64,000 bases of DNA from the NCBI GenBank assembly GCA_020354645.1, contig CP070652.1, forward strand, positions 190,330 to 254,329, given 5' to 3'. The stretch's first letter is position 1. Every line of letters begins with the position of its first letter. The notes below the pieces were generated by a model that had not been told where the DNA came from, ran no database searches, and was given only the letters and a program-made list of their open reading frames with translations. A program made the position numbers and the translations under genes. This document shows positions 662 through 19,299 of the stretch, in pieces. Source of the DNA: Deltaproteobacteria bacterium (GTDB taxonomy: Bacteria; Desulfobacterota; Desulfobacteria; Desulfobacterales; G020354645).

Positions 662-1537
662 CTACTCCTCAGATAAAAATCCTTTTATACCAGTAATATC
701 GATCTGATTCATGTTGAGACCCAAAGCCTTTTCGTCAATACCCATTCCAAGTCCAAGCAGCTGGGGGTATAAAATGGAAGGAAGTTGATGATTGCTTCCT
801 CTTTTTGAAACAATCATCTGCTGAACATTATCGAATTGCAGTTGACACCAGGGGCAGGCCGAACAAAGATAGTCTGCACCGGCCTGCTTTGCGTCTGCCA
901 GTTTTTTTTGAGTGAGATCCATGGAAAGATCATCATTGATCCCCATCAGAGGAGCACCGCAACACTCCAGCTTCAACGGCCAATCCACACTTTTGGCACC
1001 GGTAACCTTTACCAGTTCATCGAAAATGACCGGTGCCGCCGGATTGTCAAACTGCATGATCTCACTGGGACGCAAAGCATGACACCCATAGTGGGTGGCG
1101 ATTTTAAGATCTTTAAATGCCCAGTTTATCTTCTCTTTCAAAGCGGGTATACTAATATTTTTGTAAAGCACCGCTAGATAATGAACCACCTCAAGATTTC
1201 CGTTGTAACCGAGTCCTTCTTTAGCCAGAAGAGCATTGACAGTATCCCGCAGCGATTTATCCTCTTTGAGGAGGTGATCTGCCTTCTTAAGACTGCCATA
1301 GCAGCACTTGCAGAGGGTCATCATGTCCAGACCCTGTTTCTCCGCCAAAGCCAGGTTTCTGGCAGAAAAAATAAGATAGGTATTAAAATCCGCATTGCGC
1401 ATCGGATATCCGCAACAGTTAAATTCACGGATATCAGACACATCGACATTCAGCCGGTTGAGCACCGCTCTGGCGGAAAGCTCATATTGCTCAACACGGG
1501 CCGGTATATTACACCCAATAAATAATGCAAATTTCAT
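662..1537 (-). CDS. hdrB: HdrB-like CCG-domain iron-sulfur protein
   Basis: Two Cys-rich CCG motifs (FNCCGYPMR and [10 protein letters not shown]), each with nearby CxxC pairs. The stop lies 2 nt from the hdrA start, so the two are co-transcribed. Confidence 0.8.
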
Positions 1538-1925: not shown

Positions 1926-3698
1926 TTATTTGGTTATTGTCTCCTTTTTATCTGTCGCAAATGTTTCTTTTAGCGCCTGATTTTTCAGTTCATAGAGTAC
2001 ATCGGTTACCTTGACTCCCTGGGGACAGTGTTCCTGACATTGATAGCAGGTCAGGCAGTCCCACAGCATCCGTGAACCCATCGCCAAATCCTTCAAGCCC
2101 AGTCCCAACGCACGCATGATCTGGTGGGGTAGCATCCCCACAACTTCTTGGGGGTTTTCATAGTTTTCTACCACCGGACAGACCGTGCTGCAGTTTTCGC
2201 AGGAAAAACAATATGAGTAGGTATGGGCCTGGCCCGAACGATCGGCCTTTTCCTTAAAACCTTTATTGATGGGAGTTAAGGGAATGATCTTTTCAGGCTG
2301 GTTGATTAATTCGAAATTATCAGCGATCGCCTTTCTGGCCGCATCCAGTGGGTTGGAATAATCGGCGGCTTCAAGGCTCTCGCGGTTCAATCCTCGGTAC
2401 CATGAATACTGTGAAAGGACCAAGGGAACAGGATGACCCTTTTGGATAAGTTCTTCCCTCACATTCAGCCACATATCCTTAAGTGTTATCCCGGCGGGGC
2501 AGAACACCGTGCAGCGGTCACAATTGGTGCACAGATAGATACCCTCTTGGATTGCCCTGAGCGCCTGACTATCAAGATCCTTGTTGGCGGCATAAGCCCT
2601 CAGGAATTGAATTTTTTCCGAAGGACGAATATTGCGATTGCCGACATTATCATAGGCTACAGCGACCGAGCACCGTAGACTGCAGGTATTGCAATGCATG
2701 CAGGCGTCTAGTTCGATTGCCTGGCGGGTAGCGATATTGGCCGGGGCAGACTTTGCTTTGTCCATAACCGCACCGACCATTAAACTTACCGGTGTGGCAA
2801 AGACATGGAACATCTTGCTGAACGGCAGGTAGGCCAGGCCGATAAAACAGCTCAGAATGTGAAAATACCACAAAAGGGTGACACCGCCGGCTTGATCCAG
2901 TGCACTCGCGATCGGACGGATGATTTTGCTGGCCGCATATCCGCTAAAAGCCGACTGGGGTTTGGAATGACAGTCCATGCAATACCCTTCATGGAGTTCT
3001 TCCCCCTGAGCCAGAACTTCTTCATCGAAAGGGGCCTCGAGGTTGGGGGAAACCAGCCCATAATGTTGAACCCAAAAACTTTCCAGGGGTTGAATTTCCT
3101 CTTGATCCTCCAAACCGGCATAATCTTCAACCATTCGCATAAATTCGCTATGGGAGGTAATCTTGAGACCCTCAAGGAATATTCCTGATAACATGACCAT
3201 GGCTACGATGATGATGGCATAACGGTCCATGATTGTGGATGAGAGACGGGGAACTTTGAGGATAAAGCGTCGGTAGATGGCAATCCCGATGCCGACAATC
3301 ACCATGAAGCCAAAGAGATCCCTCAGAAACATATACGGATTGACGGTAGAATAATAATCGCTGAACAGGGGCTCAGAGATTGAGCCTTCAAGGGCATGCA
3401 TCAGCACTAGCAGCATAAACCCCCAGAAAATGAGCATATGCATAAGCCAGCGGAGGTAATTCTCTCGCAAAATTCTGAGTTGCAGCAAAACATCAAGGAT
3501 GAAAACCTTAATCAAAATCAAGATTTTCCGACTAAAAAAAGTGGTCAGTATACCTCTTGTGGCCGCGGAAACCCTATCCGCAGTCGTGACCTGATGGGCC
3601 ATTATGCCGATTTTTCGTGTGAACCAGGTAGAAATCTTGTATATCAGGCCCAAAATAAAAATCGCGAGAGAGGTGTAAAATAATATATCAAAGACCAT
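1926..3698 (-). CDS. Membrane-bound Hdr/DsrMK-like redox protein: N-terminal polytopic NarI/DsrM-like domain fused to two HdrC-like di-cluster ferredoxin domains
   Basis: About 6 hydrophobic helices with conserved His residues at the N-terminus. Four CxxCxxCxxxC(P) motifs follow (CMHCNTCSLRCS, CTNCDRCTVFCP, CFSCENCSTVCP, CLTCYQCQEHCP). One CMDCH (CxxCH) motif lies in a loop. Confidence 0.7.
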   Translation of the reverse strand: MVFDILFYTSLAIFILGLIYKISTWFTRKIGIMAHQVTTADRVSAATRGILTTFFSRKILILIKVFILDVLLQLRILRENYLRWLMHMLIFWGFMLLVLMHALEGSISEPLFSDYYSTVNPYMFLRDLFGFMVIVGIGIAIYRRFILKVPRLSSTIMDRYAIIIVAMVMLSGIFLEGLKITSHSEFMRMVEDYAGLEDQEEIQPLESFWVQHYGLVSPNLEAPFDEEVLAQGEELHEGYCMDCHSKPQSAFSGYAASKIIRPIASALDQAGGVTLLWYFHILSCFIGLAYLPFSKMFHVFATPVSLMVGAVMDKAKSAPANIATRQAIELDACMHCNTCSLRCSVAVAYDNVGNRNIRPSEKIQFLRAYAANKDLDSQALRAIQEGIYLCTNCDRCTVFCPAGITLKDMWLNVREELIQKGHPVPLVLSQYSWYRGLNRESLEAADYSNPLDAARKAIADNFELINQPEKIIPLTPINKGFKEKADRSGQAHTYSYCFSCENCSTVCPVVENYENPQEVVGMLPHQIMRALGLGLKDLAMGSRMLWDCLTCYQCQEHCPQGVKVTDVLYELKNQALKETFATDKKETITK

Positions 3699-4078: not shown

Positions 4079-5026
4079 ATGCCTCCTTCTGGCAAAAAAC
4101 CGAAAATAATTGTTATTTGCGGTCCGACCGGGGTCGGTAAAACCGCCGCGGCCATCGATGTCGCTGAAGAGATCACCGGTCAAATTGTCAGTGCCGACTC
4201 AATGCAAGTCTACCGATACATGGACGTTGGCACGGCCAAACCTACCCCCCTCGAGCAAAAAAAAATTAAACACCACATGATTGATATCGTGGACCCGGAT
4301 GAAGCGTTTGATGCGGCCCGATATTCCTTTCTGGCTCGCAAGAAAATTGTTGAGTTGCATTCTCAAAACACCATCCCTTTCATTGTCGGCGGTACCGGGT
4401 TTTATATAAAGGCGCTATTGCATGGTCTATTCCCGTCAGAACCGCTGGCGACCGGTGTTTGCAATAAACTAAAAGACGAGGCTGCCGCCATTGGATCAGA
4501 ATCGCTTTACGAACGATTGGCAAAAGTGGATCCGAAAACCGCCCGCAGAATTCACCCCCATGACACGTATCGAATAACCAGAGCGCTTGAAACCTTTGAA
4601 GCAACAGGTGAGTCAATTTCCAAGTATCAGCAAGATCATCAATTTTCAGACACGCCTTTCAGTTTCTTGAAAATTGGTCTGACCATACCTCGAGAATTAT
4701 TGTACAAACGTATCAACCAGAGAGTGGATGCCATGATCGATGCGGGTTTTGTTGATGAAGTGAGAACTCTGTTGAAAATGGGTTACGCGGCAGACCTCAA
4801 ATCCATGCAGGCGATTGGATATCGTCACGTGGTCGCTTTCATTCAGGGACGTCTCCCCTGGACGGAGACAGTGCGGACCTTTAAACGTGACACCCGAAGA
4901 TATGCCAAACGGCAATTAACCTGGTTCGGAGCCGATCCCGAGATTTTGTGGACAGAGCCAGCAAGGATGAGTGATATGCGCACGAAGATAAAAGAATTTT
5001 TAAAAGCTAAAAATGCTGATTGCTGA
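4079..5026 (+). CDS. miaA: tRNA dimethylallyltransferase
   Basis: P-loop GPTGVGKT near the N-terminus, SADSMQVYRYMDVGTAKP motif, family-typical length of 315 aa. Confidence 0.93.
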   Translation: MPPSGKKPKIIVICGPTGVGKTAAAIDVAEEITGQIVSADSMQVYRYMDVGTAKPTPLEQKKIKHHMIDIVDPDEAFDAARYSFLARKKIVELHSQNTIPFIVGGTGFYIKALLHGLFPSEPLATGVCNKLKDEAAAIGSESLYERLAKVDPKTARRIHPHDTYRITRALETFEATGESISKYQQDHQFSDTPFSFLKIGLTIPRELLYKRINQRVDAMIDAGFVDEVRTLLKMGYAADLKSMQAIGYRHVVAFIQGRLPWTETVRTFKRDTRRYAKRQLTWFGADPEILWTEPARMSDMRTKIKEFLKAKNADC

Positions 5027-5120: not shown

Positions 5121-5150
5121 TTGACAAATACATCCGTAACATATTAATAT
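5121..5150 (+). promoter_or_regulatory. Candidate sigma70-type promoter (TTGACA-18 nt-TAATAT)
   Basis: TTGACA at 5121-5126 and TAATAT at 5145-5150, about 175 nt upstream of the 5325 start. Sequence match only. Confidence 0.35.
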
Positions 5151-5324: not shown

Positions 5325-7097
5325 ATGGAAATCCAACACGATCGCAGGCGGTGGCTCAGAGAAATGTTAAACCCTCCTGAGATCGGGATTCTTTACACCG
5401 GTAATCAAGGGTTTATACCCGGAATCCATGTCACAAAACAACCAACGGCCTTCTACGTTGACTTACTCAATCGCAGCATGGGCGGTGTAATTTTAAAGAC
5501 AAAATGGGAAATCGAGCCCGAAATTATGTTTCATTTACAGATTTATAGTTCGCTTGAGGAATCTTGGGAGTTCATCCAGGTTAGAGCAAAATGGACAAAC
5601 AAAGACACGACCAATCCCGAATATAACCTCATTGGCGTGGAGTTTGAAGCACCGGACCAAATGATGGAGCAACCCAAACTCGACCAAGCGCAGAATAAAA
5701 AAATACCTCTACCCTGCGATTATGAGTTTTTGAGAAACACACGATTGTTTAAGTCCGTTCACAGGAATGTCGCATGCCCGCTTTTGAACAGCTTAATACA
5801 CAAAAAAATAAAAGCCGGTGAAAGAATCATCACTCAGGGAGCCAGAAATGATTCCCTCTATATTATTCAGCAAGGAGCATGCATCACCAAAGTAGAAAAA
5901 CATAAAAAACTATATCCCGTGGGAAGATCGCTTGAGGGTGATCTCATTGGAGAAATGGCGATTCTTGCAGAAAAGCCGCAAAGCGATCATATTGACGCTG
6001 AAACCGATATGCAACTCTGGGGGCTGAAAAGGGTCCAGTTTGATAAGATTGTAACTGAACATCCTGAATTAAGGAATTTTCTTACCGAGCTTCTGGCTGA
6101 ACGCTTTTCGTCACAGAGATTGCTCGCGGAAAAAAGAATCGGAAAATACGCTGTGACCGATACCATCGGCGATGGTCCCAATAGCATTGTATATAAAGGA
6201 ATACACGCCGAACTGGGCATCCCGGTTGCTGTCAAGATGATCCGTCATGATTTAGCCATGGATTTGGACTTTCTGCGAGGCTTCCAAAAGGAGGCCAACG
6301 CTATTGCCAATCTGAACCATAAGAACATTGTAAAAGTGTATGACATCGAAGAGCGATTTAGAACGCTATTTATCATCATGGAACTGATGGAGGGCGAAAC
6401 CATTGGATCGCTCATTAAACGATGGAAAACGATTCCGATTGCTCAGACGACAGCTTTTTTAATCCAGATCTGTTCCGGTCTGGTTTATGCCCATCAACAG
6501 GGTATGATCCACGGAATTATCAAACCATCAAATCTTTTTGTGAATCAAGATGGCGGTTTGAAAATACTAGACTTCGGCCTTGGGATACGGCATGGAGCCA
6601 AAGATCTTAATTTGTCAGGTGCAACGGCGGCCTACATGCCTCCTGAGCAGATTAGCGGCAGCACGGTTGACGAACGCAGCGACATATATGCCTTGGGTAT
6701 CACTGCTTATGAAATGTTAACAGGTAAAACGCCTTTTTCAGAAGACAATACCCGAACCAAAATGGATATGCCTTTGGAACATAATGTTCCGGACCCCGCA
6801 GGCCAGGTGCCAAACTTACCGGAAATCTTACGACGTTTTATACTTAAAACCTGTGCCAAAAATCCGGATGAAAGATATCAAAGTGCGGCATCAGCCCTAA
6901 ACGATCTTCAAGTGCTCGCAAAGTCATATGGGCTGGAGTCCGAGACCCAACCCTCAAAAAAACGAAAAATGTTAACGTTGTTTTTACTTTACAACGAAGA
7001 ACATCAGCTTGAGCTTAAACAGTTATTGGAAGAGTTCACTAACAAAACACGAAAATTAAGGGTTGACCTTAAAGCGGCTGATTTCAAAGACATATAA
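5325..7097 (+). CDS. Multidomain signalling protein: PilZ-like N-terminus, cyclic-nucleotide-binding (CAP_ED) domain, Ser/Thr kinase-like domain with degenerate catalytic loop
   Basis: RRWLR (RxxxR) and NRSMGG (D/NxSxxG) are PilZ-like motifs. GDLIGEMAIL is the cNMP-domain core. Kinase motifs VAVK, DFG, PPE and DIYALG are present. HGIIKPSN replaces HRDLKPxN, so the catalytic Asp is missing. Confidence 0.75.
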   Translation: MEIQHDRRRWLREMLNPPEIGILYTGNQGFIPGIHVTKQPTAFYVDLLNRSMGGVILKTKWEIEPEIMFHLQIYSSLEESWEFIQVRAKWTNKDTTNPEYNLIGVEFEAPDQMMEQPKLDQAQNKKIPLPCDYEFLRNTRLFKSVHRNVACPLLNSLIHKKIKAGERIITQGARNDSLYIIQQGACITKVEKHKKLYPVGRSLEGDLIGEMAILAEKPQSDHIDAETDMQLWGLKRVQFDKIVTEHPELRNFLTELLAERFSSQRLLAEKRIGKYAVTDTIGDGPNSIVYKGIHAELGIPVAVKMIRHDLAMDLDFLRGFQKEANAIANLNHKNIVKVYDIEERFRTLFIIMELMEGETIGSLIKRWKTIPIAQTTAFLIQICSGLVYAHQQGMIHGIIKPSNLFVNQDGGLKILDFGLGIRHGAKDLNLSGATAAYMPPEQISGSTVDERSDIYALGITAYEMLTGKTPFSEDNTRTKMDMPLEHNVPDPAGQVPNLPEILRRFILKTCAKNPDERYQSAASALNDLQVLAKSYGLESETQPSKKRKMLTLFLLYNEEHQLELKQLLEEFTNKTRKLRVDLKAADFKDI

Positions 7098-7269: not shown

Positions 7270-7719
7270 CTAATACTCCCAGCCATCCATATCAATTATT
7301 TTAAAAATTTCGTTTGCAGCTGGAACTTGGCAACGACTTATTTCTTCGCTGTAGCTGTCAAGGATTGCTTCAGCCTCCTGAAAGTTGGTCACATAGTCAG
7401 TTTGATATTGACTATTCATCGACCGAAAAAATTGCATCAGGGTTTTTCCGATATCCGAGTCGGGAATGATCCGCACCGTTTTGCCCACCCCTAACCCCCA
7501 TAATCTGTTTTGCTTTTTTTCGAATAGATCCTTGCTATCTGCATTTACAAGCATGCAATTTCTGTAGTCGGTCAAGCACGTAAAATTGGGTTCCAAGGGT
7601 AAGCATAATCTTTCGACCTCCTTTAATGCTTTTCGCAACTCTTGCCTGCTTGGGTCCCCAAAGACAAGATAAAGTCGATTCTTTTTGACGTCCGTACGTA
7701 CCTGGTACATGTTTTCCAA
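7270..7719 (-). CDS. Hypothetical protein (149 aa)
   Basis: Clean ORF convergent with the kinase-like gene. No motif recognised. Confidence 0.45.
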   Translation of the reverse strand: MENMYQVRTDVKKNRLYLVFGDPSRQELRKALKEVERLCLPLEPNFTCLTDYRNCMLVNADSKDLFEKKQNRLWGLGVGKTVRIIPDSDIGKTLMQFFRSMNSQYQTDYVTNFQEAEAILDSYSEEISRCQVPAANEIFKIIDMDGWEY

Positions 7720-8705
7720 TATCTAGGGTAAAGCTAAAGCCTTTGTTATCCCGGCTCCTGATTCATTTATTACCGGCAGCCGATATTAGAATTATAATTA
7801 TCAGCGTGCAGACATAACTCCGGGCTTTTTATTTATAAGCTTTATTACCTTAATTGTGCAAAAGTCGAGGATGCTCCAGATCCAATTGAGTTCCGCGATT
7901 CTGAAAGTTCAGATGCGAAATCCCGCTGTGCGGGAAGCGTCCAAGGGTTCGCCAGGACACGCAACGCAGACACCGCAAGTGTCAAGCCGAAGGCCATGGG
8001 GTATCATCCCGCTGAAAGCGGGAGGGGTAAACAAAATGAAGACATAAATAAGACAACTATCATTCTGCTATCATTGGTTTACAGTGAGGTGCTTAAATAT
8101 TTCGGATACCTCATGATACTGAAGAGTTATAATTCACTCTTCATTTTGTTTATGCCCAGATGAGGTATTAAAAATCTCCGTTTTAATATTATGAGCCGCA
8201 GCCGGCCTAAAATATTTAAATGTCTGCTTTTTGCCTGGCAGGAATTTATATTAGATTTTAGTGAAGGAATTTGCCATTTATATTCACACGTTAATCCCAG
8301 CCCGCTGAGCGGAAGGCTGCTTTGTTGGGTTTGGGAATACGCGATCATCTTGGTGAGGGATAATGAAAAATGATCCATTTTATTTAGGTCAAAGCCGTCT
8401 GCATGTCAAACGAAAAATTTGCCTCTCACCTGGGCCAGCAAAACCGTGACAACAATTAGAAGATATTTTTATGTAGCTCGCGACATGAAGGACGGGGCTT
8501 TACAGTGAACTAAATATCTATCTCAGATATCTGACCAATCGTGGCAATTTTTTGATCCGGCTGAAAAGACGATCTGAACCGTTAACTTTCCTGTTATCAT
8601 TTATTTATAATCTTTTTCGGCTTGACAGTTGCAAGTCTTTTTTGTATTCGTTTATGTTTAAAAATTTTTCAGATTGTTAGCTAATTTTTTATTGGGGGTG
8701 TTATC

Positions 8706-11447
8706 ATGGCTAAAAAGTGGGTGTATCTTTTTAATGAAGTGGGTGCGGCTGAAGAATATGTTAGCGGCGATTGGGAAGCCGTTAGGGGGCTTCTCGGAGG
8801 TAAAGGGGCCAACCTGGCAGAGATGTCGCGATTGGAAGTACCTGTTCCTCCCGGGTTTACCGTAACGACTGAGGCATGTATTGCTTATCTTGACGAAGGT
8901 GAGAAATTTCCAGAAGGGATGTGGCAACAGGAACTGGATGCGCTTAAAACGGTAGAAACTGCAACCGGCAAAAAGTTCGGCGATGCCAAAAACCCGCTGC
9001 TGGTTTCATGTCGTTCCGGCGGCAAGTTCTCTATGCCCGGTATGATGGACACAGTCCTCAATATCGGATTGAACGACGAGACGGCCCAGGGCATGATTAA
9101 GCTAACCGGAGATGAGCGGTTCGTTTGGGACGCTTACCGCCGTCTGGTTCAAATGTTCGGTAGTGTCGTCATGGGAATGCCTGATGAAGTGTTCGAGGAA
9201 GTGATCACTGCAGCCCGCGAGAAAGCTGGCGTCACATCTGATGCTGAATTGTCAGCAGCGGATTGGAAAGCAGTGACCAACGAATTCAAACAAATTTATA
9301 AGCAACACACGCAACTGGATTTTCCCACCGATCCAGTTGCGCAACTGCGGCAGGCCACAGAGGCGGTTTTCAAAAGCTGGAACGGTAAGCGGGCAATCGA
9401 CTATCGCAATGCCGCCGGTATCTCTCATGACATGGGCACCGCGGTGAACATTCAGACGATGGTTTTCGGTAATATGGGTAGTGACAGTGCGACCGGTGTT
9501 GCTATGACCCGTAATGCTTCTACCGGAGAGAACAAGATTGAAGGTGACTATTTAATGAATGCCCAAGGTGAGGATGTTGTTGCCGGTATTCGTTTGACCG
9601 AAGATATTCAGAAACTAAAAAATGAACTGCCGGATGCGTATGCCGAATTCGAGCAGATCTGCCGGAAACTGGAAAAGCATTATCGTGAAATGCAGGACGT
9701 TGAGTTCACGATTGAAAAAAGCAAGCTTTGGATGCTGCAGACACGTGACGGAAAGCGAACCGCGCAGGCGGCTGTGCGCATCGCCGTGGATATGGCTGAG
9801 GACGGACTCATAAGCCGCGAGGAAGCTGTTTTGCGCGTAACTCCCGGGCAAATCGATTTCTTCCTGCATCCCCAGTTTGATCCTAAAGCCACCAAAGCCG
9901 CAAAAGATGGCGGGAACTTTCTCGCCAAGGGTCTCAATGTATCACCGGGTGCAGCGTGTGGTGTGGTAGCCTTTGATGCTGATTTGGCCGAAAAGTGGGC
10001 CAAGAAAGACGGCAAAAAAGTTATCATGGTGCGACCTGAGACCAAACCGGACGATGTCCACGGTATGTTGGCTGCCGAAGGGATCCTCACCAGCCGGGGG
10101 GGCCGAACCAGCCATGCTGCCCTGGTGGCCCGCCAGTTTGGCAAACCTGCTGTGGTGGGTGTGTCGCAGCTCAATATTGAAATCGACAAGCGGCAGATGA
10201 GTGTAAATAACATCACCATACAAGAGGGGGACTGGATCTCGATTGATGGTACTGCCGGTGAGGTGTTTAAAGGCCAGATTGCTACCCTGGTACCCGACAT
10301 CAAGGACCAGTGGTTGTTAAAGCTTCTCTCCTGGGCGGATGAATTCCGTCGTCTCGGTGTTTGGACCAATGCCGATTACCCGCGCGATGCGCAACGGGCA
10401 CGTGACTACGGGGCTGAAGGAATAGGACTTTGCCGCACCGAGCATATGTTTTTCGAGGCGAGTCGGCTGCCGCATGTGCAAAAGATGATCATGTCAGACT
10501 CGCCGGAGGAGCAGCGTGAGGCGCTTGACGCACTCCTGCCTTTTCAGCGCGAAGACTTTGCCGGACTTTTCAGGGTCATGGACGGCCTGCCGGTTATCAT
10601 TCGTCTGATTGATCCGCCGCTGCACGAGTTTTTACCCAATATCATCGACCTGACGCACGAAATTGCTGATTTAAAAATCCACCAGCACAAAGCCGCAACC
10701 CAATCGGAAACCGATGAATTGCTGCAGCAGGTCAAAGAAAAAGAAAGAATTCTCAAACGGGCAGAAAGCCTGCGCGAAGAAAATCCAATGCTTGGATTGC
10801 GCGGCGTCCGCCTGGGTATCCAATTGCCTGAATTGACCACCATGCAGGTGAGAGCGATATTTGAAGCAGCTTGTGAAGTAGCCCAGGAAGGCATCTCCGT
10901 GCATCCGGAGGTGATGATCCCGTTGACCTGTCACGTAAACGAGCTCAAGGTGCAGCGGGGTATCCTCGAGAGCGAGGCCAAAAAGGTCATGGAGGAAAAG
11001 AGCGTTGAAATCGAGTATAAATTCGGCACGATGATCGAGATTCCACGTGCTGCCCTGACTGCCGATCAAATCGCCGAATATGCCGCCTTTATATCTTTCG
11101 GAACCAATGATTTAACTCAAACGACTTTTGGAATCTCCCGGGACGATGCTGAAGCCGGTTTTCTGATTCAATACTTGGAGAAAGGAATTCTGCCGAACAA
11201 TCCATTTGCCACCATTGATCCGGACGGGGTGGGTGAATTAATGGCCATTGCGGTTAAAAAAGGCCGCGAAGTCAACCCTGATCTGGAATGCGGTATCTGC
11301 GGAGAACACGGTGGCGACCCGCAATCTGTTGTCTTGTGCCATAACCTCGGATTGACTTATGTCTCATGTTCACCCTATCGGTTGCCGATTGCTCGCTTGG
11401 CGGCAGCGCAGGCAGCCCTAAGCGGGAAGATTACACAAGATAAATAA
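8706..11447 (+). CDS. ppdK: Pyruvate, phosphate dikinase
   Basis: GGKGANLAEM ATP-grasp motif, phospho-His loop TSRGGRTSHAALVARQFGKPAV, GLCRTEHMFF and FFSFGTNDLTQ-like PEP-utilising motifs. Length 913 aa. GGGGGTG RBS. Confidence 0.97.
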   Translation: MAKKWVYLFNEVGAAEEYVSGDWEAVRGLLGGKGANLAEMSRLEVPVPPGFTVTTEACIAYLDEGEKFPEGMWQQELDALKTVETATGKKFGDAKNPLLVSCRSGGKFSMPGMMDTVLNIGLNDETAQGMIKLTGDERFVWDAYRRLVQMFGSVVMGMPDEVFEEVITAAREKAGVTSDAELSAADWKAVTNEFKQIYKQHTQLDFPTDPVAQLRQATEAVFKSWNGKRAIDYRNAAGISHDMGTAVNIQTMVFGNMGSDSATGVAMTRNASTGENKIEGDYLMNAQGEDVVAGIRLTEDIQKLKNELPDAYAEFEQICRKLEKHYREMQDVEFTIEKSKLWMLQTRDGKRTAQAAVRIAVDMAEDGLISREEAVLRVTPGQIDFFLHPQFDPKATKAAKDGGNFLAKGLNVSPGAACGVVAFDADLAEKWAKKDGKKVIMVRPETKPDDVHGMLAAEGILTSRGGRTSHAALVARQFGKPAVVGVSQLNIEIDKRQMSVNNITIQEGDWISIDGTAGEVFKGQIATLVPDIKDQWLLKLLSWADEFRRLGVWTNADYPRDAQRARDYGAEGIGLCRTEHMFFEASRLPHVQKMIMSDSPEEQREALDALLPFQREDFAGLFRVMDGLPVIIRLIDPPLHEFLPNIIDLTHEIADLKIHQHKAATQSETDELLQQVKEKERILKRAESLREENPMLGLRGVRLGIQLPELTTMQVRAIFEAACEVAQEGISVHPEVMIPLTCHVNELKVQRGILESEAKKVMEEKSVEIEYKFGTMIEIPRAALTADQIAEYAAFISFGTNDLTQTTFGISRDDAEAGFLIQYLEKGILPNNPFATIDPDGVGELMAIAVKKGREVNPDLECGICGEHGGDPQSVVLCHNLGLTYVSCSPYRLPIARLAAAQAALSGKITQDK

Positions 11448-12290: not shown

Positions 12291-13103
12291 CTAATCACTG
12301 CTGTGATAGTAAAGCATCGCTTTCGGAATTAAATTACGAATATTCTGAATTCGCCTTTCATCCGAAGGATGGGTGCTTAAAAATTCCGGGGGTGCCTGGT
12401 CGCCCTTCATTTTAGCCATACGTTTCCATAAATCCACGGCCGTATTGGGATGATAACCGGCCATTGCCATAAATATCAAGCCCAGGTGATCAGCTTCTGA
12501 TTCATGCAAACGACTATAGGGAAGCATAACACCATATTGCGCGCCGGCCCCATATACTTGCATCCAGAGTTCGCGAGTCTGTTGTGGCTTGTTTGCCAGA
12601 GCCGTCGACAGGGCCATGCCGCCAAATTGGACAATTAAGCCTTGCGACATGCGCTCATTGCCGTGATTAGCCACCACGTGGGCGATTTCATGGCCCATAA
12701 TGACAGCCAGGCCCTTTTCATCCTGAGCAACCGGCAAAATACCGGTATAAACCACAACTTTTCCGCCAGGCATTGCCCATGCATTTACGTCTTTGCTTTC
12801 AACCAGATTAAACTCCCATTCATAATATTTGAGTTCATGAGACAAGTTGTTTTCGGCCATATATTGCTCAACCGCCTTTTGAATTTTCCGGCCGACACGT
12901 CTGACCAATCCGGTCTGGTTAGTGTCTGCGTTTATTTTATGGGATTTCAGAAAAGCGTCGTATTGCTCCGTGCTCATCGAAAGCATTGAAGCATCTGGAA
13001 TCAGTTCCAGGTGTCTTCTGCCGGTAATTGGAACCGTGCTGCATGCCGTTAATAAAAAAAACAGCGATAAAAAAATCAAAATACTTATTTTTAAAAGTTT
13101 CAT
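12291..13103 (-). CDS. M48-family zinc metallopeptidase lipoprotein
   Basis: Lipobox LLTAC after a signal peptide, HEIAHVVANH (HExxH) motif and a downstream ESEADHLG segment typical of M48. Confidence 0.85.
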   Translation of the reverse strand: MKLLKISILIFLSLFFLLTACSTVPITGRRHLELIPDASMLSMSTEQYDAFLKSHKINADTNQTGLVRRVGRKIQKAVEQYMAENNLSHELKYYEWEFNLVESKDVNAWAMPGGKVVVYTGILPVAQDEKGLAVIMGHEIAHVVANHGNERMSQGLIVQFGGMALSTALANKPQQTRELWMQVYGAGAQYGVMLPYSRLHESEADHLGLIFMAMAGYHPNTAVDLWKRMAKMKGDQAPPEFLSTHPSDERRIQNIRNLIPKAMLYYHSSD

Positions 13104-13221
13104 AGGGAATTATCCTTTGTATTGAAAAATAAGTGAAACCCCAAAAAGTGTCAAGCGGTATGGTTACGAGGTGCCGAAACCACCCCAAAAAGCCATAAAC
13201 GAATGTGACGCTACCCGTCTG

Positions 13222-13545
13222 AGACAGCGGGGCTTCCCGGTACAGAAAATATCTGTTTCAGATTTAGTGATTTTAATAAGATGTTCCAATTGCCGCCACG
13301 GTTGTGCCGGACCTGGCAAGGGGGTAATTTTTTGCCGAGGATCATTGGCCCCCTGGAATCCGAAACGGGAACTCCCTTCTATTTTGCTGCCTGCCCACCC
13401 ACCATCCGATGTCCCACAAAATAACACCCCTCGTTCGGGCCGACGTAATTTGTAATATCTTATTGAAACACTGGTTTGACAATTATTGAAGCTTCTCTTC
13501 ATCTCCCCTTAAAAGGCGGCGCCTGCGGGGAAGCGAACCGGCCAA
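13222..13545. repeat. Family-A long-hairpin repeat, copy A1 (direct repeat with 14318-14651)
   Basis: Collinear with copy A2. Shared blocks are AAAATATCTGTTTCAGATTTAGTGATTTTAA, GGTAATTTTTTGCCGA, ACACCCCTCGTTCGGGCCG and AATATCTTATTGA. Confidence 0.75.
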
Positions 13546-13546
13546 A

Positions 13547-14098
13547 TTACCAATAATACGGATAATATCGGTAGTAGGGATGGCGCCAGTGGTAATACGG
13601 ATATGGATAATACCAGTAATAGTCGTACGGATATCGATAATATTTTTCATATTCCGGCCAGAGATGAATGCTGCGGCTGGTGATCATAAGATATGAATAA
13701 GAAGTTTTTTCGACCTTCTCCACCGTTGTGCCATTGACGATACCGGCAACCGTAATTTTGCGGTCCTTTTTGTAAACCTCGGGATCGAGAAATCCCTTAT
13801 GGGCAATGATAAATCTGCCCTGGCTGCGATCCTTGGATTTGGGTTCATCCCCTAACGAAAGCGGTGCCTGCAAAACGGTTAAGTTGGTTTTGTCATGCAA
13901 ATTTTCCACTTCCAGAATATAGCCACCCAAGATAACGGTTTTGCCGAGGTAATTGTCAACTTCTTCGATTAACTTATCAAACGGCACTCGGGGCTCTGCC
14001 TCTGATCGGATCGGTTTGGGGATTACCGCGCATGAGACGATCATCTGAATCAGGAAAATCATCACTAAAAAAAATATATGCTTTCGTCTACAAACCAT
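13547..14098 (-). CDS. slp: Slp-family outer-membrane lipoprotein with extreme Tyr/Pro-rich C-terminal tail
   Basis: Lipobox MIVSC. Slp-like core (GKTVILGGYILEV..., GRFIIAHKGFLDPEVY). C-terminus reads YEKYYRYPYDYYWYYPYPYYHWRHPYYRYYPYYW. Confidence 0.7.
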   Translation of the reverse strand: MVCRRKHIFFLVMIFLIQMIVSCAVIPKPIRSEAEPRVPFDKLIEEVDNYLGKTVILGGYILEVENLHDKTNLTVLQAPLSLGDEPKSKDRSQGRFIIAHKGFLDPEVYKKDRKITVAGIVNGTTVEKVEKTSYSYLMITSRSIHLWPEYEKYYRYPYDYYWYYPYPYYHWRHPYYRYYPYYW

Positions 14099-14317
14099 GC
14101 AGAAATGCTCTCAATTCAATTCGTTGATTTTAGATGTTTGCTAAATAAAAATATAAGGATGCGGGACAGCGAGATCAATCCGCTGTGTTGATCCAATACT
14201 GGGTGTACCATAATTTATGGTGATTTTTAAAGTACCATACGATTATTGATAAAAAAACTACATCCCTTCAGGCACAAAATCAATCGGAATATAATTTTGG
14301 AAGTGCAGCACCCCACC

Positions 14318-14651
14318 CTATAGGGCGGGACTTGCCGGTCCGAAAAATATCTGTTTCAGATTTAGTGATTTTAAAAAATATGTTCTGATTGCCGCCAAGG
14401 TTGTACCGGCGCCCGGGCGAGTGGTAATTTTTTGCCGACCAGGTGCCGGATCAGTGCCCCCTAAACTCCGAAACGGCGGGTACCCTTTGCCATTTAGCTC
14501 CGCTGTAATCATCATCTGGTCGGCCCAAAAAACACCCCTCGTTCGGGCCGGGCTAATTGCAATATCTTATTGAGACATTATTTTGGCAATTATTGAAACT
14601 TCCCTTGATTTCCCGCTAAAGGGCGGGGTTTGCAGGGAAGCAAAACGGTCA
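14318..14651. repeat. Family-A long-hairpin repeat, copy A2
   Basis: See copy A1. The two copies lie in the same orientation and flank the slp gene. Confidence 0.75.
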
Positions 14652-14740
14652 ACCGAGACGATGATTCACATCAGATGATGGGATTTTTACTTGTGTTTAA
14701 AATTTTGAATAGTTAGTGTTATCAGTCTTTAGAATTAATT

Positions 14741-15055
14741 TAGAGTGATTCTCAAAAATATGTTCTGATTCCCCCTGCGGTCATGCTGGTCCGGGCGAAG
14801 GGAAATTTTTTTGCCACAAGCTGTTCACTCCGGTGGTTTTAAATGGCCAAATGTCTGTGCTGCTCAGCCAAGCAAACCAATTTGTTCCATGGGTGTTGGG
14901 TAGGATGTTATAACCCGCTAGGCGCCAAGTGAAAGGAAGTCGCCGTCTCAAGCCCAAGGGGCAGGGATCTGGCATCTTGTGACAAAAAAATTACCCCTCA
15001 CCCGGACCACCTCATTCCATTGCTTATCGGAATATTATTTTGAGAATCACTATAG
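14741..15055. repeat. Family-A MITE-like element, copy A3, with clear terminal inverted repeats
   Basis: Left end TAGAGTGATTCTCAAAAATATGTTC, right end GGAATATTATTTTGAGAATCACTATA. Inner arms GGGAAATTTTTTTGCCACAAG and CTTGTGACAAAAAAATTACCCC are complementary. Confidence 0.75.
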
Positions 15056-15068
15056 AGGTAAAAATTCC

Positions 15069-15425
15069 ATGAATGTTCAAAGCGCCATTCTGGCATTTGC
15101 TCAAAGCGAAAAGATCAAATCAGGCCTGATATGGGTTTCTCAGGTCCTGGAACTGCTGACAGGATTGCCGGAAAAAGATAAAAAAGGTGCCGAAAGAATC
15201 GCCAGAAGTTTAATGAATTTGATATTATTTGAAGTCCGAATTGCGAGTAAGGCAGCCAAAGATTCCTCGTGGCAGGAAATTGAAAAGAATATTGATTTGG
15301 CAATTATTATGATCAATTCCGGTGTGCCCCAGGAATCCGTCTACCATCTGACCCGAGCTTTGAGCCACGTTACCAATATCGGTCAACGTTCCATGTCCTA
15401 TCTTAAAAATAGAGGGTATCTGTAA
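15069..15425 (+). CDS. Hypothetical protein (about 118 aa; the track ORF start at 14979 lies inside repeat A3)
   Basis: ORF in the track. An internal ATG at 15069 (MNVQSAILAF...) avoids the repeat. No motif recognised. Confidence 0.4.
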   Translation: MNVQSAILAFAQSEKIKSGLIWVSQVLELLTGLPEKDKKGAERIARSLMNLILFEVRIASKAAKDSSWQEIEKNIDLAIIMINSGVPQESVYHLTRALSHVTNIGQRSMSYLKNRGYL

Positions 15426-15472
15426 GGCAGCTATCTGAAAGAAATATCTTCCGTACCGGGAAATCCAGTTCT

Positions 15473-16024
15473 TCAGAGCGTTGAGCCGAGCTTCTGATGC
15501 TGGATGTTATCCATGTGAAAATGATACACCCCTCTCAGGCGATCTGAAAAATATCTTTCCAGAGTCTTCTCAATCACCCGAAACGCCAATTGGTCCCATG
15601 GTATCTCATCTTCTGATAAGAGCCTAACCTCCAAACTTTCACTTCCCGGCCTGTAATTTTGGTCGATTAGACGGGCACGGAACATAAGATAAATCTGATT
15701 GATAAAAGGAATGCTATAAAGGGCGTAAAGTTGAATTATTTGGACCTTTGCGCAGGCTTCTTCCAAGACTTCACGGATGGCGCCTTCTGAAACCGTTTCA
15801 CCGTTCTCCAGGTAGCCGGCAGGTAGGGTCCACTTCCCTTGACGAGGTCCAATCGCCCGCCGGCAGAGCAGAATTTTGGCGCCCCATTCCGCTATGCAAC
15901 CGACAACGAGTTTCGGGTTCTGATAGTGAATTGTTCCGCAAACCCTGCAATAAAATCGCGGCCGATCATCTCCCGGTGGGACACGGCGCTCGATGGTTGC
16001 ACCGCACTGACTGCAATAGTTCAT
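15473..16024 (-). CDS. Nudix hydrolase with N-terminal Zn-ribbon
   Basis: CSQCG...CRVCG Zn-ribbon, followed by the Nudix box GYLENGETVSEGAIREVLEEA. Confidence 0.85.
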   Translation of the reverse strand: MNYCSQCGATIERRVPPGDDRPRFYCRVCGTIHYQNPKLVVGCIAEWGAKILLCRRAIGPRQGKWTLPAGYLENGETVSEGAIREVLEEACAKVQIIQLYALYSIPFINQIYLMFRARLIDQNYRPGSESLEVRLLSEDEIPWDQLAFRVIEKTLERYFSDRLRGVYHFHMDNIQHQKLGSTL

Positions 16025-16079
16025 ATTAAAATCCTGCTGGCTGATTGAATTTGATTATTACCCGATACCACTCCAGCTA

Positions 16080-16931: not shown

Positions 16932-16962
16932 AACTCGATGTCTTCCGTTTCCTGAACTCTTT

Positions 16963-19011: not shown

Positions 19012-19299
19012 ACAATGCTTTGGACAATTACGAAGTGACTGGGATTTCCAAATAGATGGAAAAGATCGACATGTTTTCTGGTGAGTTACCATTTTAAGTT
19101 ATCAGCTGAAACCTTTCCGCATCTATGTAATCAATAATTATTTTTAGTGTAAACATTCAGGAAATTCGTCCCCCTAACAACCTATCAAAACCATCTGATT
19201 CGCATCGAAACATTTTTGCAAACACTATCAATTTAAGTATTATGAGAATGATGTCAAAAATCGCACTCACATATTTTGACCTATTATCAAAATGCAAGC

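What the first reader, a model, noticed from the sequence alone, without database searches (positions are those of the whole stretch)
5325..7097. PilZ-like + cNMP-binding + Ser/Thr kinase fusion in which both the cNMP pocket and the kinase catalytic loop are degenerate
- PilZ-like part: the N-terminal roughly 110 aa carries RRWLR and NRSMGG, matching the c-di-GMP PilZ motifs RxxxR and D/NxSxxG.
- CAP_ED part: the domain keeps GDLIGEMAIL, but its phosphate-binding cassette reads PQSD where the canonical motif is P-R-S/T-A.
- Kinase part: it keeps VAVK, DFG, PPE and DIYALG. The catalytic loop is HGIIKPSN instead of HRDLKPxN, so there is no catalytic Asp. The Gly-loop is GDGPNS.
- This looks like a pseudokinase scaffold that integrates two second-messenger-type sensor domains. 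I do not recognise this architecture as described.
Basis: partly seen in the sequence, partly recalled or inferred. Interest (0 to 1): 0.6.

Follow-up and report, generated by a model that had tools for sequence, protein, structure and literature searches.

The report
c-di-GMP-sensing dead kinase beside PPDK
This gene encodes a three-part signalling protein in which the c-di-GMP sensor looks intact but the cyclic-nucleotide pocket and the kinase active site are both disabled, and in every relative examined it sits just upstream of the gene for pyruvate phosphate dikinase, which hints at an undescribed link between biofilm signalling and central carbon metabolism.

Summary

- **Kinase:** an ungapped alignment to PknB puts Ile398 where the catalytic Asp belongs. 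Lys304, Glu323, Asn403 and Asp416 are kept.
- **cNMP pocket:** the phosphate-binding Arg is Gln219.
- **PilZ:** the sequence match is below the Pfam cut-off, but the modelled fold matches only PilZ structures.

The architecture itself is not rare. More than 100 full-length homologues in Desulfobacterota and Nitrospirota are canonical, and they often lie next to a PP2C phosphatase or a class III cyclase.

The window's gene belongs to a small, discrete offshoot: 21 clusters at 90% identity, and one representative at 50%. The whole offshoot has lost the pocket Arg, and two of its lineages have lost the catalytic Asp. PilZ has become its most conserved domain. All domains are under purifying selection (dN/dS 0.07-0.23).

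PPDK lies directly downstream in 10 of 10 offshoot loci and in 0 of 69 canonical loci.

My best reading is a c-di-GMP-gated, non-catalytic regulator that probably acts on PPDK. Ligand binding, lack of activity and the PPDK link are all inferred, not shown. I rate it a new variant of known kinds, of moderate to high interest.

The parts
5325..7097 (+). Whole gene: 590-aa PilZ / cNMP-binding-like / pseudokinase / C-terminal tail protein
   Evidence: ORF list and translation; Pfam; full-length AlphaFold model with pLDDT 85.8 and pTM 0.81
5325..5654 (+). PilZ domain (residues 1-110), a six-stranded beta-barrel
   Evidence: Model of residues 1-126. The top 40 PDB fold matches are all PilZ domains, including Alg44, YcgR, MrkH, BcsA and MapZ. 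The Pfam PilZ match is below cut-off for this protein, but 27 of 39 relatives match. This is the most conserved domain in the subfamily and has the lowest dN/dS, about 0.07.
5346..5360 (+). RxxxR c-di-GMP motif (R8-R-W-L-R12), in the loop before strand 1
   Evidence: R12 is invariant and R8 is at least 90% conserved across 92 family members. RRRW[IL]RE is invariant in the degenerate subfamily.
5469..5486 (+). [D/N]xSxxG c-di-GMP motif (N49-R-S-M-G-G54), at the hairpin between strands 2 and 3
   Evidence: DLLNRS[LM]GGV is nearly invariant in the subfamily.
5712..6110 (+). Cyclic-nucleotide-binding (CAP_ED) fold, residues about 130-262
   Evidence: Pfam PF00027 at 160-245, E 3.9e-13. It aligns colinearly with the CNB-B plus kinase part of PKG. 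dN/dS is 0.12-0.17.
5949..5987 (+). Degenerate phosphate-binding cassette GEMAILAEKPQSD: Glu210 is kept, Arg is replaced by Gln219, and Ala by Asp221
   Evidence: Canonical relatives read GEMALITGEPRSA. All 22 subfamily members lack the Arg.
6138..6899 (+). Hanks-type protein-kinase fold, residues about 272-525, predicted to be catalytically dead
   Evidence: Pfam PF00069, E 1.1e-49. PknB match at E 3e-39. Fold matches to PknB, PknA and Stk1 have TM 0.8-0.87 relative to the target.
6168..6185 (+). Gly-rich loop GDGPNS (canonical relatives read GxGGYS)
6234..6236 (+). VAVK lysine K304, retained
   Evidence: at least 90% conserved in the subfamily
6510..6533 (+). Catalytic loop HGIIKPSN: the HRD Arg is Gly397, the catalytic Asp is Ile398, and Lys400 and Asn403 are kept
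   Evidence: Ungapped alignment to PknB HRDVKPAN
6570..6578 (+). DFG motif, with Asp416 retained (invariant in the subfamily)
6957..7094 (+). Conserved C-terminal tail of 46 aa (KKRKMLTLFLLY...ADFKDI), with no known family
   Evidence: Conserved across the whole family (consensus). No Pfam match. The model shows one helix at 558-576 with pLDDT 57-84. dN/dS is 0.07-0.12.
8706..11447 (+). Pyruvate, phosphate dikinase (913 aa), the proposed functional partner; it keeps the GGRTSHAALVAR centre (T468, H470)
   Evidence: Pfam. TIGR01828 equivalog at 1276 bits against a cut-off of 843. Motif. It lies directly downstream on the same strand in 10 of 10 subfamily loci and in 0 of 69 canonical loci.
7270..7719 (-). 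Antisense 149-aa ORF of unknown function between the two genes, present only in the window's own lineage (group A)
   Evidence: Homologues at 69-88% identity in L081 and L082, and in no other locus. No Pfam or NCBIfam match.
5121..5150 (+). Promoter-like site TTGACA-18-TAATAT upstream of the gene (a consensus match only)

Best explanation
The gene encodes a c-di-GMP receptor built on a disabled cyclic-nucleotide-dependent kinase.

Its ancestors were PilZ / CNB / Ser-Thr kinases, a family still common in Desulfobacterota and Nitrospirota, where the genes usually sit next to a PP2C phosphatase or a class III nucleotide cyclase. In one small lineage:
- the cNMP pocket lost its phosphate-binding Arg;
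- the Gly loop changed;
- the catalytic Asp (groups A and C) or the catalytic-loop Lys (group B) was later lost;
- the PilZ domain became the most tightly conserved part of the protein.

I propose the following mechanism. c-di-GMP binds the N-terminal RxxxR and NxSxxG site of PilZ. The dead CNB fold relays the change to the kinase fold, as CNB-B docks on the catalytic domain in PKG. The kinase fold may still bind ATP/Mg, because Lys304, Glu323, Asn403 and Asp416 are kept. It then acts as a non-catalytic switch or docking module rather than as a phosphotransferase. The most likely target is pyruvate phosphate dikinase, which is encoded immediately downstream throughout the lineage. That would couple c-di-GMP level to the pyruvate/PEP node.

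**Shown:** domain folds, motif states, the subfamily pattern, purifying selection, synteny.
**Inferred:** c-di-GMP binding, loss of cNMP binding, lack of phosphotransfer, and any action on PPDK.
For: **Domains and motif states.**
- Pfam finds the CNB and kinase domains.
- The PilZ fold is supported by 40 of the top 40 PDB matches, and both c-di-GMP motifs are in the expected structural positions.
- The ungapped PknB alignment puts Ile398 at the catalytic Asp.
- All 22 subfamily members lack the phosphate-binding Arg. Groups A and C lack the HRD Asp. Group B reads HRDINPAN.
- Subfamily-specific losses cluster in the phosphate-binding cassette (T215, G216, E217, R219) and the catalytic loop (D398, K400). 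Subfamily-specific gains cluster in PilZ (14 of 28) and the kinase C-lobe (10 of 28).

**Reversal of constraint (mean pairwise identity).**

| Group | PilZ | Kinase N-lobe |
|---|---|---|
| Canonical relatives | 33% | 70% |
| Degenerate subfamily | 72% | 55% |

**The gene is not decaying.** dN/dS is 0.07 (PilZ) to 0.23 (kinase C-lobe) against two relatives.

**The subfamily is discrete.**
- It is monophyletic in a neighbour-joining tree.
- A profile of the subfamily scores its members at 915-1063 bits and the next protein at 710 bits.
- An exhaustive HMMER scan of 1.84 billion representatives finds a single representative at 1050 bits, with the next at 617.

**Gene context.**
- PPDK is directly downstream on the same strand in 10 of 10 subfamily places. 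The gap is 15-161 bp in group B, group C and P0045.
- PPDK is downstream in 0 of 69 canonical loci (Fisher p about 7e-13, though the loci are not phylogenetically independent).
- Of 79 canonical loci, 34 carry a PP2C phosphatase, 19 a class III cyclase, and 49 at least one of the two. None of the 9 subfamily loci carries either.
- Upstream flanks differ between lineages (miaA; TRL/PIN; thiolase-AlaDH-Alr) while the pair persists.
Against: - No biochemical data exist for any member of the family.
- The PilZ sequence score for this protein is below the Pfam cut-off.
- The long C-terminal helix that Galperin & Chou list for canonical PilZ domains is not seen in the model.
- Lys304, Asn403, Asp416 and two Gly-loop glycines are retained. 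Residual or atypical phosphotransfer therefore cannot be excluded, and group B and P0045 still have the Asp.
- Part of the synteny is simply inherited. The NUDIX-ChaN-peptidase M1 genes further downstream are also shared between the window and group C loci, so adjacency to PPDK may partly reflect common descent within about four related lineages.
- In the window's own lineage the two genes are 1.6 kb apart, an antisense ORF lies between them, and PPDK has its own promoter-like site at 8582-8611. Co-transcription is therefore unlikely here.
- No physical or co-evolutionary evidence links the protein to PPDK.
Confidence: 0.45

Rival explanations
1. It is still an enzyme: a weak or atypical kinase. 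ATP and Mg are held by Lys304, Asn403 and Asp416. Phosphotransfer proceeds slowly without a catalytic base, or with a substitute such as Glu397 in the HETIKPSN relatives. PPDK (T468 in the TSH centre) or another protein would be the substrate, and c-di-GMP would gate the reaction.
For: - Lys304, Glu323, Asn403, Asp416, G282 and G284 are retained.
- Group B and P0045 keep the Asp (HRDINPAN, HGDIKPSN).
- The kinase domain is under purifying selection.
- PPDK keeps the Thr-Ser-His centre. From my own knowledge, this is the site that PDRP phosphorylates in plants and bacteria.
- From my own knowledge, some proteins called pseudokinases that lack the HRD Asp (JAK2 JH2, HER3) show weak activity.
Against: - Ile398 and Gly397 replace Asp and Arg, and the catalytic loop holds no acidic residue.
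- The residue at the Asp position varies within the subfamily (I, T, R), as expected once catalysis is no longer selected.
- The alpha-C Glu is lost in P0002-P0005 and group C, and group C reads DFM instead of DFG.
- No PP2C phosphatase neighbour is present, unlike canonical relatives.
- The kinase N-lobe, the most conserved domain in canonical relatives, is relaxed here.
Confidence: 0.2
2. It is a pseudokinase whose partner is not PPDK. For example, it could pair with a canonical PilZ-CNB-kinase paralogue or another signalling protein, as pseudokinase/kinase pairs do in eukaryotes. The PPDK adjacency would then be a neutral, inherited feature of a few related genomes.
For: - The wider downstream gene order (NUDIX, ChaN, peptidase M1) is also conserved between the window and group C.
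- The subfamily comprises only about four lineages.
- Genomes with two family members exist: Desulfomonile tiedjei L051 and L075, and JAQYVL01 L056 and L080.
- In group A the genes are separated by 1.6 kb and an antisense ORF.
Against: - Upstream flanks differ completely between groups A, B and C, and group B also differs downstream of PPDK (AraC, sulfatase), yet the pair is kept.
- Gaps of 15-161 bp on the same strand in group B, group C and P0045 suggest an operon.
- The pseudokinases are only 45-50% identical between groups, a depth at which neutral adjacency usually decays.
Confidence: 0.2
3. The CNB fold is not dead but rewired to a different small ligand, for example a metabolite of the pyruvate/PEP node. 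The protein would then still integrate two inputs. This is compatible with either output model above.
For: - The CNB domain is under purifying selection (dN/dS 0.12-0.17), with many invariant residues in the subfamily, including Glu210 of the cassette.
- The replaced cassette is itself conserved within each lineage (PLGF, PLEM, PQS/PQR).
- From my own knowledge, CAP-family folds bind non-nucleotide ligands in CooA, CprK and PrfA.
Against: - The cassette differs between lineages (PQSD, PLGF, PLEM, PVEV), which argues against one shared new ligand.
- Only 2 of 28 subfamily-specific conserved gains fall in the CNB domain.
Confidence: 0.12
4. It is a decaying relic with no function.
For: Several hallmark residues are lost.
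Against: - The reading frame is intact at 590 aa.
- dN/dS is 0.07-0.23 in every domain at dS up to about 1.6.
- 129 of 590 positions are invariant across 22 members of the subfamily.
Confidence: 0.02

Closest known systems
Canonical PilZ / cNMP-binding / Ser-Thr kinase proteins of Desulfobacterota and Nitrospirota (uncharacterised; e.g. P0009-P0120, loci L002-L080)
   Same: They have the same three domains plus the same C-terminal tail, the same length (about 588 aa), 42-50% identity over the full length, and the same RxxxR and [D/N]xSxxG motifs.
   Different: They keep GxGGYS, HQD/HRD, DFG and the GEPRSA cassette. Their neighbours are a PP2C phosphatase or a class III cyclase, never PPDK. PilZ is their least conserved domain. 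I found no paper on them.
Myxococcus xanthus Pkn1 (MXAN_1467), a Ser/Thr kinase with a PilZ domain
   Same: It is a Hanks-type kinase fused to PilZ (bioRxiv 10.1101/814665; PMC8316039).
   Different: In Pkn1 the kinase is active and the PilZ domain is predicted not to bind c-di-GMP (PMC8316039), which is the reverse of the case here. From my own knowledge, PilZ lies C-terminal to the kinase in Pkn1. Pkn1 has no CNB domain.
cGMP-dependent protein kinase (PKG), CNB-B plus catalytic domain (PDB 7lv3, 7t4u)
   Same: [quoted passage not shown] A single colinear alignment covers residues 133-529 (E 6e-29), and PKG structures are the best whole-chain fold matches.
   Different: PKG binds cGMP through an intact cassette Arg and is an active kinase. 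It has no PilZ domain. The relative domain placement in the model differs (rmsd 18-21 A).
Bacterial pseudokinase families of the bacterial STK atlas (CP1, DYD, ActPs1-3, DLHK, GLW; bioRxiv 10.1101/2025.01.12.632604), including the MviN pseudokinase domain
   Same: They have a Hanks-type fold with catalytic-triad substitutions, and are conserved as families.
   Different: All seven families show substitutions of the VAIK Lys, and most also lose the DFG Asp. This subfamily keeps both and loses only the HRD Asp. The main text of the atlas does not mention PilZ or cNMP domains.
PPDK regulatory protein (PDRP, DUF299), from my own knowledge
   Same: It would be a dedicated regulator of PPDK encoded in bacterial genomes.
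   Different: PDRP has an unrelated fold and is an active bifunctional kinase/phosphatase. This protein shows no similarity to it (no such Pfam match).

Membership tests
PilZ domain (PF07238) | Six-stranded beta-barrel fold | tested here: met
   The model of residues 1-126 has pLDDT 82.7 and six strands. The top 40 PDB fold matches are all PilZ domains, with probability 1.00 and TM about 0.5.
PilZ domain (PF07238) | RxxxR motif in the N-terminal loop | tested here: met
   R8-R-W-L-R12 lies before strand 1, which spans residues 13-24. R12 is invariant in 92 relatives.
PilZ domain (PF07238) | [D/N]xSxxG motif | tested here: met
   N49-R-S-M-G-G54 lies at the hairpin between strands 2 and 3.
PilZ domain (PF07238) | Pfam HMM score above the gathering cut-off | tested here: not met
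   The score is 17.7-18.2 bits against a cut-off of 22.5. However, 27 of 39 homologous N-termini match at E <= 0.01, the best at 2.3e-11.
PilZ domain (PF07238) | C-terminal alpha-helix of canonical PilZ domains (Galperin & Chou) | tested here: not met
   No helix follows strand 6. Residues 108-129 form a low-confidence linker, and the next helix (130-136) belongs to the CNB domain.
PilZ domain (PF07238) | Binds c-di-GMP | not testable with these tools
   Needs DRaCALA, ITC or a co-crystal structure.
Cyclic nucleotide-binding domain (PF00027) | HMM score above the gathering cut-off | tested here: met
   49.6 bits against 27.5, E 3.9e-13, residues 160-245.
Cyclic nucleotide-binding domain (PF00027) | Phosphate-binding cassette Arg, and the Ala that follows Ser/Thr | tested here: not met
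   The cassette reads PQSD where canonical relatives read PRSA. The Arg is absent in all 22 subfamily members.
Cyclic nucleotide-binding domain (PF00027) | Cassette Gly-Glu | tested here: met
   G209 and E210 are invariant.
Hanks-type Ser/Thr protein kinase (PF00069) | Kinase fold / HMM match | tested here: met
   169.6 bits, E 1.1e-49. TM 0.8-0.87 to PknB and PknA.
Hanks-type Ser/Thr protein kinase (PF00069) | VAIK Lys and alpha-C Glu | tested here: met
   K304 and E323 are present. The Glu is lost in P0002-P0005 and in group C.
Hanks-type Ser/Thr protein kinase (PF00069) | HRD catalytic Asp | tested here: not met
   H396-G397-I398 aligns without gaps to the HRD of PknB.
Hanks-type Ser/Thr protein kinase (PF00069) | Catalytic-loop Asn and DFG Asp (Mg ligands) | tested here: met
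   N403 and D416 are present.
Hanks-type Ser/Thr protein kinase (PF00069) | Gly-rich loop GxGxxG | tested here: inconclusive
   GDGPNS keeps G282 and G284. PknB itself reads GFGGMS. The Pro at position 4 and the loss of the aromatic at position 5 are unusual.
Hanks-type Ser/Thr protein kinase (PF00069) | Phosphotransferase activity | not testable with these tools
   Needs a radiolabel or Phos-tag assay.
Pseudokinase (kinase fold lacking at least one of VAIK-Lys, HRD-Asp, DFG-Asp) | At least one catalytic-triad residue substituted | tested here: met
   HRD-Asp is replaced by Ile398. The definition is as used in bioRxiv 10.1101/2025.01.12.632604.
Published bacterial pseudokinase families (CP1, DYD, ActPs1-3, DLHK, GLW) | VAIK-Lys substitutions occur in all seven families | tested here: not met
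   K304 is at least 90% conserved in the subfamily. The comparison rests on the paper's text only, because its family models were not available.
PDRP (DUF299) PPDK regulator | Kinase-PPPase domain | tested here: not met
   No such Pfam match at E <= 1.

The most novel reading that the evidence does not exclude
A c-di-GMP-gated pseudokinase is a dedicated allosteric regulator of pyruvate phosphate dikinase. c-di-GMP binding to PilZ switches the dead CNB-kinase module between a form that binds PPDK and a form that releases it. This would tie the decision between biofilm and motile life directly to gluconeogenic flux at the pyruvate/PEP node in sulfate-reducing Desulfobacterota. It would be a bacterial example of a kinase-to-pseudokinase transition accompanied by a change of target and of controlling messenger, from cNMP to c-di-GMP.
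Probability: 0.2. Interest if true: 0.75.

Novelty: new variant of a known kind. Interest (0 to 1): 0.58.

Why it matters
Three points.

1. It points to a large, unstudied family of bacterial kinases that carry receptors for two different second messengers, c-di-GMP and cNMP, on one chain. These genes sit next to cyclases and PP2C phosphatases.

2. It offers a clean natural experiment in pseudokinase evolution. One small lineage lost the cNMP pocket, and then lost catalysis in more than one way. Over the same period it tightened constraint on PilZ and on parts of the kinase C-lobe.

3. The invariant pairing with PPDK gives a concrete, testable hypothesis for how c-di-GMP could control central carbon metabolism. 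I found no paper that reports a link between PilZ proteins or pseudokinases and PPDK.

Tried and rejected
- **PilZ by sequence against solved structures.** A profile of 39 N-termini gave only chance-level matches (E about 0.6, chromate reductase, TubZ). PilZ domains are too divergent for this, and the fold search settled the question instead.
- **Census with the PilZ region alone.** The word-indexed search returned only 5 short fragments. I replaced it with a profile search of the subfamily and an exhaustive HMMER scan.
- **Exact look-up of the window's protein.** It is not on record, so the source genome is not identified. The closest relative, P0001, is 92% identical and comes from a JGI metagenome. 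Relatives are Desulfobacterales or 'Deltaproteobacteria' genomes assembled from metagenomes.
- **Genome-collection scan.** The search patterns came from canonical motifs, so only one subfamily genome was retrieved (L001, SG8_13). Whether carriers also encode a canonical paralogue could not be determined.
- **Riboswitch or other RNA between the genes.** There are no Rfam matches at gathering score anywhere in the window.
- **Register shift rescuing the Asp.** Rejected.
- **Pseudogene decay.** Rejected by dN/dS.
- **Second kinase or paralogue in the window.** None found.
- **Literature.** Seven full-text searches found no paper on PilZ-CNB-kinase proteins or on a pseudokinase/PPDK link. The supplements of the bacterial STK atlas were not available.
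- **Not attempted.** A multimer model with PPDK, and inspection of domain contacts in the full-length model.
Full report
**1. What is in the sequence**

The ORF at 5325-7097 (+) is real. It encodes 590 aa, has an AGGA about 10 nt before the ATG, and has an N-terminus (MEI..RRRW) that is invariant in its closest relatives.

- Pfam finds a cyclic-nucleotide-binding domain at 160-245 (E 3.9e-13) and a protein-kinase domain at 275-523 (E 1.1e-49).
- PilZ is not reported for the whole protein. It appears only below the cut-off when the N-terminus is scanned alone: 17.7-18.2 bits against 22.5.

**2. Is the N-terminus a PilZ domain?**

Yes, on three grounds.

- 27 of 39 homologous N-termini match Pfam PilZ, the best at E 2.3e-11.
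- The AlphaFold model of residues 1-126 (pLDDT 82.7) is a six-stranded barrel. Its 40 best matches among solved structures are all PilZ domains: Alg44, YcgR, MrkH, BcsA, MapZ, MotI and PlzA.
- R8xxxR12 lies in the loop before strand 1, and N49xSxxG54 lies at the hairpin between strands 2 and 3. [quoted passage not shown] R12 is invariant, and R8, S51 and G54 are at least 90% conserved in 92 relatives.

Two departures from a textbook PilZ:

- A loop of about 17 residues (25-41) lies between the motifs. This probably explains why the Pfam alignment starts only at residue 43.
- The long C-terminal helix described for canonical PilZ domains is absent (for the description; for the model).

**3. Are the kinase and the cNMP pocket really degenerate?**

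- The phmmer alignment to M. tuberculosis PknB is ungapped from residue 373 to about 420. It pairs H396-G397-I398 with H-R-D.
- The loop HGIIKPSN has no acidic residue, so no register shift restores the Asp.
- Lys304 (VAVK), Glu323 (alpha-C), Lys400, Asn403, Asp416 (DFG) and the first two Gly-loop glycines are present. The protein therefore lacks the catalytic base but keeps the residues that hold ATP and Mg.
- GDGPNS is only mildly abnormal, since PknB itself reads GFGGMS.
- In the CNB domain, Gly209-Glu210 are kept, but the phosphate-binding Arg is Gln219 and the following Ala is Asp221.

**4. The family and the offshoot**

The protein has more than 100 full-length homologues of about 588 aa in genomes assembled from metagenomes and labelled Desulfobacterales, Desulfarculaceae, Syntrophobacteraceae, Desulfovibrionaceae, Desulfomonile, Nitrospirota and Thermodesulfovibrionales. 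Most are canonical: GxGGYS, VAIK, HQDIKPGN or HRDVKPAN, DFG and GEPRSA.

A monophyletic offshoot of 22 sequences is marked by HN/HD-RRRW[IL]RE and DLLNRS[LM]GGV. All of its members lack the cassette Arg and the fourth Gly-loop glycine. The rest of the kinase site has decayed in different ways:

| Lineage | Members | Catalytic loop | Other changes |
|---|---|---|---|
| Group A | window, P0001-P0005 | HGII / HETI | alpha-C Glu lost in P0002-P0005 |
| Group B | P0006-P0008, P0010, P0014 | HRDINPAN (Asp kept, Lys lost) | Gly loop GEESHS |
| Group C | 10 sequences | HCRITPGN | DFM; alpha-C Glu replaced by Gln |
| P0045 | single sequence | HGDIKPSN | none noted |

The offshoot is discrete and small.

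- A profile built from it scores its 21 database clusters at 915-1063 bits and the next protein at 710 bits.
- An exhaustive HMMER scan of 1.84 billion representatives at 50% identity finds one representative at 1050 bits, with the next at 617.

**5. Selection**

| Mean pairwise identity | PilZ | CNB | Kinase N-lobe |
|---|---|---|---|
| Canonical relatives | 33% | 58% | 70% |
| Offshoot | 72% | 62% | 55% |

- Comparisons between groups A, B and C show the same order.
- Residues conserved only in the offshoot lie mainly in PilZ (14 of 28) and the kinase C-lobe (10 of 28).
- Residues conserved only in canonical relatives and lost in the offshoot lie in the cassette (T215, G216, E217, R219), the catalytic loop (D398, K400) and elsewhere in the kinase.
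- dN/dS against two relatives (dS 0.23 and 1.65) is 0.07 for PilZ and 0.10-0.23 for the CNB and kinase domains.

The degenerate domains are therefore maintained by selection. They are not decaying.

**6. Gene context**

In the window the gene is preceded by miaA (4079-5026) and followed by an antisense 149-aa ORF (7270-7719). After that comes pyruvate phosphate dikinase (8706-11447; TIGR01828 at 1276 bits), whose GGRTSHAALVAR centre is intact.

PPDK is the next gene on the same strand in all 10 offshoot places examined:

- the window;
- L081 and L082 (group A);
- L083 and L086/L087 (group B; L086 and L087 are the same locus from two samples, counted once);
- L084 (P0045);
- L001, L085, L088 and the P0023 contig (group C).

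The gap is 15-161 bp outside group A. None of the 69 canonical loci with at least 1.5 kb of downstream DNA has PPDK. Instead, 34 of the 79 canonical loci carry a PP2C phosphatase (usually directly downstream) and 19 carry a class III adenylate/guanylate cyclase. Forty-nine carry at least one of the two, and none of the offshoot loci carries either. That fits a working cNMP/kinase/phosphatase circuit in the canonical family and a different job in the offshoot.

Upstream flanks differ between lineages: miaA in group A, TRL/PIN in group B, and thiolase, alanine dehydrogenase and alanine racemase (divergently oriented) in group C and P0045. Alanine dehydrogenase is also present in L081.

Two caveats apply.

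- The NUDIX-ChaN-peptidase M1 block further downstream is also shared between the window and group C. Some of the synteny is therefore simply inherited, and the 10 places represent about four lineages.
- In group A the 1.6 kb gap, the antisense ORF and a promoter-like site before PPDK argue against co-transcription.

**7. Mechanism**

I consider it most likely (0.45) that the protein is a c-di-GMP receptor whose dead CNB-kinase module acts non-catalytically, possibly still binding ATP, and that PPDK is its target.

The domain order resembles PKG. PKG I-beta aligns colinearly over residues 133-529 (E 6e-29), and PKG structures are the best whole-chain fold matches. The CNB fold may therefore still serve as the relay between the sensor and the kinase fold.

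Rival readings:

- a weak or atypical kinase (0.2);
- a pseudokinase with a partner other than PPDK, with inherited synteny (0.2);
- a CNB fold rewired to another ligand (0.12; compatible with the others);
- a relic without function (0.02; contradicted).

**8. Comparison with what is known**

- Kinase-PilZ fusions are known. M. xanthus Pkn1 has an active kinase and a PilZ domain predicted not to bind c-di-GMP, which is the reverse of the situation here.
- Bacterial pseudokinase families have been catalogued. All seven show substitutions of the VAIK Lys, and most also lose the DFG Asp, whereas this offshoot keeps both. The main text of that paper does not mention PilZ or cNMP domains.
- I found no paper on the PilZ-CNB-kinase architecture, on its degenerate offshoot, or on any pseudokinase or PilZ link to PPDK.
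- The domain combination is visible in precomputed database annotation, so the architecture is undescribed rather than undiscovered.

**9. Verdict**

This is a new variant of known kinds: a PilZ receptor fusion and a bacterial pseudokinase. Its functional context, the invariant pairing with PPDK, is testable and has not been reported. Interest 0.58.

Noticed in passing
window 7270-7719 (-): A 149-aa antisense ORF lies between the pseudokinase and PPDK. It is conserved at 69-88% identity in the two group A loci (L081, L082) and absent from groups B and C. It has no Pfam or NCBIfam family. It looks like an insertion that split a former two-gene unit.
   Followed up: partly
window 7748-8318 and 8489-8614: The window carries about 570 bp and about 126 bp of extra DNA upstream of PPDK relative to the 92%-identical relative L082. 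The region is AT-rich and holds short inverted repeats (7975-7991/8616-8632; 8028-8042/8138-8152) and an 83-aa ORF (8127-8378, -) with no family. It could be a small inserted element or regulatory DNA. Rfam finds nothing there.
   Followed up: partly
window 6957-7094 (residues 545-590): A C-terminal tail (KKRKMLTLFLLY...LEEF...ADFKDI) is conserved in the whole family, canonical and degenerate, and is under strong purifying selection (dN/dS 0.07-0.12). It matches no known domain. The model shows one helix at moderate confidence.
   Followed up: partly
loci L002-L080 (canonical relatives): The canonical PilZ-CNB-kinase genes frequently sit next to a PP2C phosphatase (34 of 79 loci), a class III nucleotide cyclase fused to AAA/TPR domains (19 of 79), or hybrid histidine kinases. 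This suggests an unstudied cNMP plus c-di-GMP dual-input kinase circuit. Some relatives lack PilZ and match only from residue 130 onward.
   Followed up: partly
L081 6451-7563; L084 285-4447; L085 1943-5640; L088 1734-5435; P0023 contig: Alanine dehydrogenase, often with alanine racemase and a thiolase, is divergently transcribed upstream of the pseudokinase in group C, in P0045 and in one group A locus. It is another pyruvate-linked enzyme. It is not present upstream in the window, where miaA is the neighbour.
   Followed up: partly
proteins P0122 (178 aa) and P0079 (400 aa), same 21.7 kb JGI contig: Together these two proteins cover a group A homologue (PilZ part plus CNB-kinase part). The gene is therefore split on that contig, either by a real frameshift or by an assembly error.
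   Followed up: no
window 662-1537 (-) and 1926-3698 (-): A CCG-domain protein lies next to a 590-aa protein that combines a nitrate-reductase-gamma-like membrane part with two 4Fe-4S dicluster regions (weak QmoC/HdrC/DsrK-like matches). This is a respiratory electron-transfer module typical of sulfate reducers. Its length of 590 aa, equal to the target's, is a coincidence.
   Followed up: no
window 12291-19092 (-): A peptidase M48, Slp lipoprotein, Zn-ribbon NUDIX, ChaN haem-binding protein and peptidase M1 block lies downstream of PPDK. The NUDIX-ChaN-M1 part recurs in group C loci, which shows that wider gene order is conserved among these genomes.
   Followed up: partly
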